Shown here: positions 20,441 through 55,408 of the stretch, one piece after another
Position numbering within the stretch: position 1 is the first letter of the stretch
Layout of the letters: each line of letters opens with the position of its first letter
From: Adineta vaga
Lineage: Eukaryota > Animalia > Rotifera
Assembly: GCA_021613535.1 (NCBI GenBank)
Contig: CP075494.1
Location: 496,001-560,000, forward strand
DNA length: 64,000 nt
Reading direction: 5' to 3'
Program-made: the position numbers and the translations under genes
The notes under the pieces: model-generated
The model's input: only the letters and a program-made list of their open reading frames with translations
What the model was told of the DNA's origin: nothing
Database searches by the model: none

Positions 20441-20640
20441 CTATTTCATATAATCAACCAAAATTTTGTCTAACAAGCAGTCTGGAATCAAAATGGAATG
20501 ACAATAGCCAGTAGAACAACAGTTGGTTATTATCCTGTTGATATTTTTATTAACACAAAGAACACAATTTATGTTTCGAATCAAGAGAAGGATGAGATTT
20601 TAGTATGGTTCAACAATAGTATCAATCCAACAAAAATCAA
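20441..20640 (+). pseudogene. Orphan, frameshifted, 3'-truncated NHL cassette exon related to the NHL-GPCR exons
   Basis: Same acceptor context ag|ct att tca. Translates ISYNQPKFCLT/AVWNQNGMT...PVDIFINTKNTIYVSNQ...ILVWFNNSINPTK with a +1 frameshift. Confidence 0.85.
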
Positions 20641-20664
20641 GTCTGATTGTTGAGGGTGTGGGTA

Positions 20665-21262
20665 GTATATTGACAGTTGAATCTGTCCGACAGACACGTC
20701 CACAGTTTGAAGTTAGGGACGAGATTGTGAAGGAAAAAAATATTTCTGTCTTTTACAGTCGGAGGGTCAAGTGAGTCGAAGCGATAAACGTTACTTGTGT
20801 TTTATTGCAGGTGAAAAGAGGTAGAAAGCGGTCACGACTTCGTATTTTTTATGATATGATCGACATTGCTGCTGTCAATGCACTTACCGTCTGGAAGACG
20901 AAAATGTATCAGCGTCGACTAGTCTTCATCTGTTGAATTTTCGTTTAAAAATCTCGACATTTTTGAACAAACATATCCACGATGTATTAGCTATTTGTCG
21001 ATTATTCTGTGGCGAAGAAGAATCTAATCAGAAAGAAATGAAAACAGTGTTCGATTTGTGAATTTTCTATAGACAAGAAAACTTCAACTCAATGCAGCAG
21101 TAAACTGTTCCGTATTTGTTTGTGCTGCGCATTCTGTTAAGCGTATTTTTTGTATTGCTTGTTTTAAATAAAAATATCTTACTTTAATGATTTCTTTATA
21201 AAGTCTGAGATGAAAACAAATGTTGCTGGTGTAGTGTATAAAAAAGATCGATACTAATAGGG
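20665..21262 (+). mobile_element. Decayed 3' part of a piggyBac transposon
   Basis: KRGRKRSRLRIFYDMIDIAAVNALTVWK resembles the piggyBac transposase RRW..FY.M.D.A..NA motif. Cys-rich tail (DKKTSTQC..CSVFVCAAH..FCIAC). Ends GGG|TTAA at 21260-21266. Left boundary approximate. Confidence 0.7.
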
Positions 21263-21316
21263 TTAAATAAAGTGTGTGTTTCCATGTAACTGGCTGAATC
21301 AAATAGCATGAACAAT

Positions 21317-52100: not shown

Positions 52101-54196
52101 ATTGTGTACTTTGTAAATAATTGATTTTATTTTTGTATTTTATAGATACATCATCGATTACTGACACACAATATCCATCTGCACTGAAAACCACAAGTGA
52201 AATGTATTTTCGACATTGTAACTTCGAAAAATTTTATTATGAAGCTCTTGAGATCTCTGTATCAGAGATCTATTCTTACAATATACTAAGTAGTAGCAAT
52301 GACAAAATTAATTTATATGGTTATATCTATGAAAATAATTTCAATCCACTTGCTCCACTTGAAAATTTACTTGCAGAAAATAATGATATTAGTGAAACTA
52401 ACCATCAATTTAAACTTAGAGTTCCTCTTTACGTCAACATTACGTATATTTTAGTAGTAACAACAAATTCTCCTGAAGATATTGGTGAATTTAAACTCAA
52501 TTTCATCGGCTGGAAAAATATCAATATCACGCGTCAAAGTAAGTGAATATATCTTCTTAATTGATGCCATCAATGTAAAATATAGTCAAACAAGTAGAAT
52601 TTTTTCTTATTCAAAGTAAAATGTTCATAATAACTTCTGAATATTCTTTCTTTGATTATTTAAATAGTAATACCACTCAACAATCGTTTAAATTATTCAT
52701 CAGAGTTCACTTTTACTAGTACAATGTATTATCGTGATTGTCGAATACCAAAATGTTACTATGAAACATTAGAAATCAATGTAATTACAACAGGTATATA
52801 TGTTTTATGGAGTGAGAGTAATATGGATATGTATGGATACATTTACAAAGATGATTTTGATTCGTTAAAAACATCAGAGAATTTACACTTAGAACATAAT
52901 GGAACATGTAATGAATATCAATTTAAATTTATTACTAATCTTAACAATTATACAAAATATATATTGGTTATAACAACATATTATCCATATACTATGGGAA
53001 AGTTCTCTATTTTTATATCCGGTCCGAATAATGTTAGTCTTAATCGTTTTTGTGAGTATCTCTATAGTTTTTTTAATTAATATAAACATATTTTCAACTT
53101 GTATATGAACTCTTTAGATCCAAAATTTGGTAGTTGTATTGGTGGTGATCAATGTAATTTTTATGTGAAAAGTGTTGGTTTGACGTTGGATGATATTTTG
53201 CATGATGAACTTCGTTCAAATAAACCTTTGAATGATCAATCCATCTCTATTAAATTAAGTGCAGCTCTAACAATAATTATGTTCGTTGCAGGTTTAATTA
53301 ATAGTATTCTTTCTTTTCTTACATTTCAAAATAAAGATGCACAACAAGTTGGATGTGGATTATATCTTCTAGCATCATCAATAACTTCTCTCTTAACGAT
53401 TATTATGTTTACAATAAAATTTTGGTTTCTTGTTATTACTCGAATTAATGTTTCAATTATTGATCTATCGGTTTTTCAAAGCGGTTGTAAATCTATTGAA
53501 CCTCTTCTCAAACTTTTTCTATATTTCGATAATTGGCTCAATGCTTGTGTTGCTATTGAACGAGCATTTCACGTTTTCAAAGGAATTAATGTTAATCGAG
53601 AGAAGAGTAAAAGTATTGCTCGATGGATTATTCTTATTTTACCATTCTGTATTATGGGTACTCTTATTCATGAACCAATCTTTCGCAAATCCTTTGAATA
53701 TCCATCAGAAATGAAGAGAAATGAATCAAATCAAACATATACAAACAAAACTGATGAAGAAGTAACAACATATCGACCAGTACAATGTATTGTTGAATAT
53801 CCTCGTTCTATTCAAGATTATAATACGATCATTTTATTTTTTCATCTCGTTGTTCCATTTATTGCTAATTTTTGTTCAGCTCTCTTCATCATCTTTGGTG
53901 CTGCTCGACAACGATCAAAAATACAAAAAAATCAAAAATACATAGATCATGTTCGTACACAATTTATTGAACATAAACAAATAATCATTAGTCCTATTGT
54001 TTTACTTACTTTATCATCACCACGTTTAATCATTGCATTACTTCCTGGATGTATTAAAATATCACAAAATTTATGGATATATTTATCAGCTTATTTTATT
54101 TCATTTATTCCATCAGTGCTTATTTTTATGATATTTGTTTATCCTTCAGAAATATACATGAAAGCATTTAAACAGTCGGTAACTATTAGTCGTTGA
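46195..54196 (+). CDS. Second copy of the 3xNHL - 2xPPC-like - 7TM receptor. Exons 46195-46252, 47006-47893, 49458-50345, 51061-51948, 52146-52538, 52668-53051, 53118-54196
   Basis: Same splice sites and intact frames as copy A. Amino-acid differences are concentrated in the first NHL exon. Confidence 0.88.
50688..50893 (-). mobile_element. LTR-like tRNA-containing element, copy B
   Basis: Duplicate of 5700-5905. Confidence 0.55.
50772..50845 (-). tRNA. tRNA-like sequence, copy B (better acceptor stem)
   Basis: Acceptor stem GTCCTTC/GAAGGTC with one mismatch. Same arms as copy A and a TTTTT terminator. Confidence 0.72.
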
Positions 54197-55354
54197 CAAA
54201 CTCATCGACAATAAACGTCGTTTTTACGATACAATATACCGAACTTATTGTCTATAGAGAGGGCATAAAATACTATATCTTGACTTTCTTATTATTTGCT
54301 TATTGTTTGTTCTCATTTTATTTTTAATCATAAATAATCAATTTAACAAAAATGAACTCTAAAATCGGACATCTATCTTGAGGATGTGAGTGACGGTTTT
54401 ACCACCATTCACACTCACAATCTCTTTTATCAATATCACATACATTTGAATCATTAATCAAAGTTCAAATAACCATACGCATTAAAATTGTTTTTAGATT
54501 TCTTTCACTTTTTCTAACTTAGATAGAATATTTTAAGATCCTTTTAGTTTCCAATTTATTATAAATTCTTTGTTCCATTCTTATGTTTTGATTTCTTTTA
54601 TTCATATTTGTTATTATTGCTCGTCATTTTTATATTCATATGGTTGACTTTCTTCATCGAAATAGAAAATTGAGAAAAATAAAATGGGGGTGGATGGGTA
54701 TGGGATTGATGAATAAATATACAACACTCTGAATCTTTTTTTGTTCAAAGGGATCTCGACATTTTTTTATTGGTATCCGTTGATTAGAACATCTGGGAAT
54801 ACAATTCAACTAGCTTGAGACTCATATACATAGGGCTGGTGAATCATTTTGTTAGCCTCAGTATAACACAGTGTTACGCTTCTCAATCTTGGAAATTTTA
54901 TCATAATTAGTGTGAGTAAGAGTCATCATTATGCAATAGCTTTGAAACTCTTCCATGTAATAACTACGTCAATAAGATGATATGATCAATTGGCCAAATT
55001 ACATTCAGCTTGTACTACAAACATGAACCATTTTTATGGAACTGCATAGCAGTTTTCCAGCGATATCAGTCTCACTAAATACATAAAGGTATTACCTAAC
55101 GTTTGTATACAACTCCACAATAACAGCTCGGAAAATTTTGAAAATATCCCGAAACAAAGTCTATGTAATAAACGGCAATTGTTTTTATACTCCACTGTAT
55201 ATCATATCATCGCAGTCTTGAACTCGAATAGCTTCGTAATAAAATGCAATACCCTCTGTTTGATTTTATGTATTTGTAAAGATGCAAGATTTCATTCAAA
55301 TCTTTTCGATTCTTTCTTTCATTATCGCATGACAGAAACAACATTTGTCTGTCG

Positions 55355-55408
55355 TCTTGAGGGTGTTGGATTAGTATTCATGTTCACCCCACACCCACAC
55401 CCTCAAGA
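55355..55408. repeat. Telomeric-repeat palindrome
   Basis: Perfect 12-nt inverted repeat TCTTGAGGGTGT / ACACCCTCAAGA. Confidence 0.9.

What the first reader, a model, noticed from the sequence alone, without database searches (positions are those of the whole stretch)
20441..55408. Rearrangement junctions coincide with the telomeric palindromes
Seen at four junctions. (1) A truncated NHL exon (ends about 20640) meets a truncated piggyBac across ttgagggtgtgggt at 20650. (2) The 1.48 kb duplication ends inside the C-rich arm (29999 / 43120). (3) Copy B of the large duplication ends at about 54680, directly before tgggggtggatgggtatggg. (4) The SMase D pseudogene begins at the last base of the 55355-55408 palindrome. 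Inference: these elements are break, repair or recombination hotspots that delimit gene-sized modules for shuffling.
Basis: partly seen in the sequence, partly recalled or inferred. Interest (0 to 1): 0.78.

Follow-up and report, generated by a model that had tools for sequence, protein, structure and literature searches.

The report
Telomere-repeat patches at rotifer breakpoints
In this bdelloid rotifer genome, short back-to-back runs of the telomere repeat sit exactly where genes and duplications are cut; they are likely scars left when both broken DNA ends were capped with telomere repeats and rejoined, and some were probably reused later, but they are not borders of gene-sized modules.

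Summary
The four junctions are real; the third motif is decayed. The window is a bdelloid rotifer, Adineta vaga by the gene model that matches it. It holds about 24 elements: a TGTGGG arm, a 17-48 nt linker, then a CCCACA arm. Of 11 junctions, 5-7 touch an element (0.6-1.4 expected).

The causality is probably reversed. The elements cut coding sequence. Each arm starts with a fixed (ATCT)TGAGGG leader, and there is no target-site duplication. Two copies of one bdelloid MULE transposon each carry an internal deletion sealed by its own element at different breakpoints. Best reading: telomerase-type capping of both ends of a break, then end-joining. Some patches were later reused: one linker occurs with two left and at least three right flanks.

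Closest known: vertebrate break-site interstitial telomeres, and neotelomeres seen at A. vaga deletions. I found no paper describing this two-armed form in bdelloids (8 searches). This scan's unchecked notes report it in at least 17 other genomes.

The parts
20430..20645 (+). NHL exon fragment, cut at its 3' side (J1); a decayed element lies upstream at 20354-20395
   Evidence: tblastn to NHL paralogue covers aa 19-78 of 316 and ends at 20644; alignment
20650..20662 (+). Lone G arm TTGAGGGTGTGGG at J1
   Evidence: an X7 contig shares it and the right flank but has 369 nt of other sequence on the left
20663..21266 (+). 5'-truncated, decayed piggyBac-like fragment ending in GGG-TTAA
   Evidence: Pfam DDE_Tnp_1_7, E 0.009-0.011, below cutoff; end sequence
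26726..26789 (.). Two-armed element between convergent genes
   Evidence: folds at z -4.35
28294..28345 (.). Element sharing its linker with 29948/43067 but with unrelated flanks; an X7 contig leaves the window at 28295
   Evidence: best of 2701 linker pairs
28806..28963 (-). 3' remnant of a kelch gene (28806-28900) cut at a two-armed element (28900-28963); second copy at 41926-42083
28524..29995 (+). Copy A of the 1.47 kb duplication
   Evidence: 98.2% to 41644-43115
29948..29999 (.). Two-armed element at J2, copy A; a Penelope-like RT fragment (label from recalled motifs, no Pfam hit) follows on the minus strand
   Evidence: bridged by X1, X4, X5 contigs
37573..37637 (.). Older two-armed element
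40734..40790 (.). Two-armed element with the leader on both arms
   Evidence: folds at z -6.26
41644..43115 (+). Copy B of the 1.47 kb duplication
43064..43121 (.). Two-armed element at J2, copy B, starting ATCTTGAGGG
45013..54686 (+). Copy B of the large duplication of 1-9689 (left end not defined, because copy A runs off the window); includes elements at 45220-45348 and 45525-45653
   Evidence: 98.0%
54686..54730 (+). Decayed element at J3
   Evidence: loose scan only; an X7 contig matches 54685-55410 with 399 nt of other sequence on the left
55355..55408 (.). Two-armed element at J4
55410..56066 (+). 5'-truncated SMase D-like pseudogene with in-frame stops and an internal deletion
   Evidence: aa 137-370 of intact paralogue P0002

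Best explanation
The elements sit at rearrangement junctions and are likely repair scars: both ends of a break would each receive a few telomere repeats from an RNA-templated enzyme (probably telomerase) and then be joined through a short linker. Steps: (1) shown: G arm, linker, C arm in fixed order at junctions, without target duplication; (2) shown: each arm tends to start (ATCT)TGAGGG and continue TGTGGG; (3) inferred: this is priming on a template reading about 5'-CCCACACCCUCAAGAU-3', using 2-3 host bases; (4) inferred: the two G tails cannot pair, so a 11-50 nt purine-skewed linker (error-prone extension or partial read-through) precedes ligation; (5) inferred: a finished patch offers telomere microhomology in both directions, so later capped ends can land on it, which makes some patches secondary hotspots.
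For: Order: 11 G-then-C pairs (10 independent) and 0 C-then-G among 31 window arms (p 0.001). First unit is TGAGGG in 13 of 16 window arms against 3 of 24 later units (Fisher 3e-5). The leader ATCT precedes 15 of 57 first units (0.4 expected; 2.5% at bulk TGAG sites), although the search pattern did not ask for it. Empty-site comparison: the intact 617-aa MULE transposase P0011 has bdelloid relatives. L059 keeps aa 1-18 and 554-617; L007 keeps aa 1-38 and about 602-617; each gap is filled by one element. Their linkers differ at 6 of 18 positions while flanks are 90-95% alike (p 2e-4 to 6e-3). Three of these four ends have 2-3 host bases in register with the leader (one read from DNA, two inferred from codons). 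No target duplication (3.96 vs 3.92 null, p 0.40) and no element-specific hairpin symmetry. Junction enrichment. Reuse: 28294 and 43067 linkers are the best of 2701 pairs with unrelated flanks; X7 contigs leave the window at 20654, 28295, 29948 and 54685. Precedent: telomeric repeats at some A. vaga deletion breakpoints (PMC13564844); two-sided addition proposed for 3 of 41 vertebrate TERC-ITS loci (PMC8537989).
Against: No enzyme or template RNA was identified. The MULE pair could also be one old patch with two later deletions ending at its arms. One of the four MULE ends shows no in-register bases. An EM search found only degenerate arm sequence, not a distinct linker core. The X7 evidence comes from truncated contig tables, and an alignment can stop at a length-variable repeat. 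PMC13564844 reports no meaningful change in interspersed telomeric repeat density in one irradiated clone.
Confidence: 0.65

Rival explanations
1. One reading: pre-existing palindromes are fragile or recombinogenic sites (cruciform, G4 or microhomology) that cause the rearrangements.
For: J2 diverges inside an arm shared by both copies. One linker has 2 left and at least 3 right flanks. Four of six elements folded give z -3.9 to -6.3.
Against: It does not explain the leader and first-unit bias, elements inside former coding sequence, or two different linkers in homologous MULE copies.
Confidence: 0.15
2. Self-propagating patch: a capped end invades an existing element, copies linker and C arm, releases, and anneals to the other capped end. 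Linkers would then be related by descent from genomic donors.
For: Near-identical linker at 28294, 1.65 kb from 29948. Linkers resemble each other more than shuffles (17.7 vs 14.6). An 11-nt linker recurs in L021, L031 and L096.
Against: Only 1 such near-identical pair among 2701. It still needs telomerase-type capping, so it refines the best explanation more than it replaces it.
Confidence: 0.1
3. A tiny telomere-bearing MITE or other mobile element.
For: Inverted arms, a shared outer leader and loosely related linkers.
Against: No target duplication. Flanks are deleted or unrelated, not contiguous. Lone arms occur. No shared flanking family was seen in all-against-all BLAST.
Confidence: 0.04
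4. A selected protein-binding or regulatory element (telo-box or Rap1-like, names recalled) that merely lies between genes.
For: Arms are better kept than linkers, and spacing is narrow. L025 and L043 share an element at one locus.
Against: Elements occur between convergent genes, in an intron, and inside broken genes. It gives no reason for junction enrichment.
Confidence: 0.04
5. Chance overlap or assembly artefact.
For: Both duplications are about 98% identical, close to allelic divergence in A. vaga (recalled). Four junctions were picked after the fact.
Against: J1 and J2-A are bridged in short-read contigs. Independent support comes from X7 and from L007/L059.
Confidence: 0.02

Closest known systems
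Vertebrate short ITS and TERC-ITS inserted at double-strand breaks (PMC7215372, PMC8537989; passages read)
   Same: Short telomeric tracts at break sites, with flanking deletion, filler sequence and host bases in register.
   Different: There, head-to-head form is rare (3 of 41 TERC-ITS) and the horse has 142 ITS loci in all. Here two arms are the rule (22 of 31 arms paired), about one element per 3 kb, with a fixed non-repeat leader.
Neotelomeres at A. vaga deletion breakpoints (PMC13564844; passages and one methods section)
   Same: Same organism, same repeat, at breakpoints.
   Different: The passages describe one-ended capping in a few samples. 'palindrom' has 0 hits in the main text. Its fig. 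S25 could not be seen.
Neotelomere followed by fusion in cancer genomes (bioRxiv 10.1101/2023.11.30.569101; passages)
   Same: A break is capped, then fused, leaving repeats flanked by internal sequence.
   Different: Tracts are hundreds of bases or more and somatic; no recurring linker or leader in the passages seen.
Fusion ITS such as human 2q13 (described in PMC7215372)
   Same: Head-to-head polarity.
   Different: That is one fusion of real chromosome ends. Here there are 2-8 units per arm, they cut genes, and they recur every few kb.
Athena/Terminon retroelements (review PMC6431247, passages; primary papers not held)
   Same: Bdelloid RT elements that use ACACCC/TCACCC to pair with G tails and are truncated by short telomeric runs.
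   Different: No Athena ORF or hammerhead was found beside the elements (Rfam at gathering threshold gave only 2 tRNAs). An Athena RT remains a candidate enzyme.

Membership tests
Break-site short ITS (vertebrate type) | Empty-site comparison shows the tract was added at a break, often with deletion | tested here: met
   Intact MULE P0011 against L007 and L059; intact paralogue P0002 against J4
Break-site short ITS (vertebrate type) | Host bases in register with the added repeat | tested here: inconclusive
   3 of 4 MULE ends, two of them inferred from codons; too few for statistics
Break-site short ITS (vertebrate type) | Usually a single-orientation tract | tested here: not met
   22 of 31 window arms are in G-then-C pairs
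TERC-ITS | Flank or linker matches the telomerase RNA | not testable with these tools
   No bdelloid telomerase RNA found in searches; no genome held
Fusion ITS (2q13 type) | Head-to-head polarity | tested here: met
   11 G-then-C, 0 C-then-G
Fusion ITS (2q13 type) | Joins two natural chromosome ends with long arrays | tested here: not met
   Short arms, mid-gene cuts, 24 clusters in 64 kb
MITE | Target-site duplication | tested here: not met
   Longest shared flank word 3.96 vs 3.92 null, p 0.40
MITE | Copies share an internal sequence | tested here: inconclusive
   Loose similarity above shuffles, but no distinct core
Terminon/Athena end | Hammerhead next to the C-rich repeat and a linked RT ORF | tested here: not met
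   Rfam gathering scan of the window; minimal hammerheads could be missed
Cassette-delimiting recombination site (integron-like) | Sites bound whole ORFs | tested here: not met
   NHL, kelch, SMase D-like and MULE ORFs are cut internally
Programmed chromosome-breakage motif (ciliate/nematode type, recalled) | Somatic molecules end in telomeres at the motif | not testable with these tools
   All runs laid were contigs, which cannot show ends

The most novel reading that the evidence does not exclude
Bdelloids have a dedicated two-ended, RNA-templated joining pathway. One capped end is extended through a templated linker that ends in C-rich repeats, this splints the G tail of any other capped end, and the resulting patch is a reusable universal adaptor that stitches unrelated DNA, foreign genes included, into the genome after desiccation.
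Probability: 0.2. Interest if true: 0.85.

Novelty: new variant of a known kind. Interest (0 to 1): 0.58.

Why it matters
How bdelloids rebuild broken chromosomes and take up foreign genes is a long-open question. If these patches are repair scars, every bdelloid assembly carries a countable, oriented record of non-homologous repair. Their positions can be tested against foreign-gene and duplication borders. The fixed leader also predicts a searchable template for the telomerase RNA, which I did not find described for bdelloids.

Tried and rejected
No whole genome was held, so the genome-wide test was not run. The viral scan gave 3 GC-rich hits, not used. Of 123 loci, 58 were kept for statistics: GC up to 42.5% plus L064 and L095, minus near-duplicates L025 and L114. 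The GC-rich rest looked like bacterial hairpins. Only some kept loci are shown to be bdelloid.

A fold-back or quasi-palindrome origin was rejected: linker halves are less complementary than random pairs. Pfam on 98 ORFs next to metagenome elements gave 5 hits, too few to test truncation. The piggyBac homologue search was empty. From the X7/X11 tables I left out three overhangs: two with 10-11% differences (probable paralogues, at 40561 and 47855) and one 48-nt overhang. No RNA holder was listed. A CTCF/KLF/YY1-like reading of J4 (motifs recalled) was dropped because those bases are partly coding sequence. A same-sequence look-up of earlier findings was blank.

Full report
Source. The window is AT-rich and encodes NHL, kelch, TPR, VWA and 7TM proteins. 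An NCBI gene model named Adineta vaga matches the J4 locus residue for residue where it aligns (P0001). TGTGGG is the published telomere repeat of this animal (PMC7943196 and PMC8494291, passages). No genome was available, so the distance to a chromosome end is unknown.

Observation. All four coincidences are in the sequence. J1: NHL homology stops at 20644 and the G arm starts at 20650. J2: the 1472-bp duplicate diverges within the C arm. J3: the large duplicate ends at 54671-54686 against a decayed element. J4: homology to the intact paralogue begins at 55410. I found one more clear case, a kelch remnant cut at 28900 and 42020. The left end of the small duplication has no element within 177 bp.

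Chance. The window has 17 G arms and 19 C arms, against 0-4 and 0-2 in shuffles. With a 10-30 bp margin, elements cover 4-10% of non-coding DNA. Of 11 junctions, 5 hit by the strict scan (0.57 expected at 10 bp, p 1e-4) and 6-7 by the loose scan (0.9-1.4 expected, p 1e-4). Four were pre-selected. The other seven give 2-3 hits against 0.3-0.8 expected (p 0.04-0.09).

Anatomy. I analysed 73 elements: 9 from the window and 64 from 58 AT-rich metagenome loci. In the window, paired arms always run G then C (11 to 0), with inner linkers of 17-48 nt. The first unit is TGAGGG in 13 of 16 arms, later units in only 3 of 24. Before that first unit come T in 45 of 57, TCT in 22 and ATCT in 15. There is no target duplication and no element-specific symmetry. 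Linkers are purine-skewed (p 2e-4) and resemble each other more than shuffles; three long-armed elements share a nearly identical 11-nt linker. No sharp linker core emerged. A polarised start with a non-repeat leader is what priming at the 3' side of an RNA template would leave. This step is inference.

Scar or cause. L007 and L059 are two copies of one MULE transposon, 90-95% alike in the flanks. Against the intact 617-aa transposase, whose named relatives are Rotaria, Adineta and Didymodactylos, L059 lacks aa 19-553 and L007 lacks aa 39 to about 601. One element fills each gap, all four breakpoints differ, and the linkers differ at 6 of 18 sites. Three of four ends show 2-3 host bases in register with the leader. 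Independent sealing is the simplest reading. One old patch with two later deletions is the alternative, and it would favour the hotspot view.

Reuse. The 28294 and 43067 linkers are the closest of 2701 pairs, yet their flanks are unrelated. The same patch has different right flanks at 29999 and 43121. Run X7, 3-6% divergent from the window, has contigs that leave it at 20654, 28295, 29948 and 54685, all at arm starts. Three others leave at 25247, 28989 and 37919, which are 716, 25 and 282 bp from an element. Those tables are truncated and give no full sequence, so this is supportive, not decisive. Right of J2-A, contig depth is a third to a half of neighbouring DNA in X1, X4 and X5, and one bin is uncovered in X7; the tool warns that depth is not copy number.

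Mechanism. Shown: position at junctions, polarity, leader, and absence of target duplication. Inferred: telomerase-type addition to both 3' ends, linker synthesis, ligation, and later landing of other capped ends on the patch. The enzyme could be telomerase or an Athena RT (PMC6431247). Elements survive in introns, between genes and in dead genes, so they may look like gene borders without acting as such.

Known and new. It works like vertebrate break-site ITS and fits neotelomeres reported at A. vaga deletions. It fails membership as fusion ITS, MITE or Terminon end. Eight literature searches listed no paper describing two-armed patches in bdelloids. Short interspersed telomeric runs are mentioned in PMC2861651 and PMC8494291 (passages). 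Two primary Athena/Terminon papers and Houtain fig. S25 could not be seen and might describe the form. This scan's unchecked notes list 41 similar findings in at least 17 genomes; they are not independent evidence.

Verdict. New variant of a known kind; interest 0.58.

Noticed in passing
window 44416-45200; L061 4000-4198: High-depth repeat ending in a GGAC microsatellite and a GTGTACTCA/TGAGTACAC hairpin, resembling a non-autonomous Helentron (label recalled); 80-85% match in L061. Another copy in X7 carries ACACCCTCAAGAT internally.
   Followed up: partly
window 30000-31000, minus strand: Decayed Penelope-like RT fragment (motif recognition from recall; no Pfam hit) abutting the J2-A C arm; lower depth in three runs, one bin uncovered in X7.
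   Followed up: partly
window 14007-14343: Long inverted repeat (81-nt arms at 94%, inner 55-nt arms at 96%) overlapping the 5' end of a 1115-aa HEPN-TPR-Sel1-MYND ORF.
   Followed up: no
window 5784-5857 and 50772-50845: tRNA genes between NHL paralogues, one per copy of the large duplication.
   Followed up: no
window 55410-56066; P0002: Bdelloids carry intact sphingomyelinase D-like genes related to spider phospholipase D. Horizontal origin was not tested.
   Followed up: partly
window 7023-7068 and 9384-9420: Decayed elements, one apparently inside an intron of an intact NHL-7TM gene; true density exceeds the strict count.
   Followed up: partly
L007 about 542-726: An insertion that looks like an inverted repeat by eye, absent from the homologous L059.
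   Followed up: no
window 22459-23400 and 31000-32000: High-depth dispersed repeats; 23457-23569 matches 30921-31033 inverted.
   Followed up: no
window 56386-60705: Three tandem paralogous ORFs of about 440 aa; the first has no Pfam hit.
   Followed up: no
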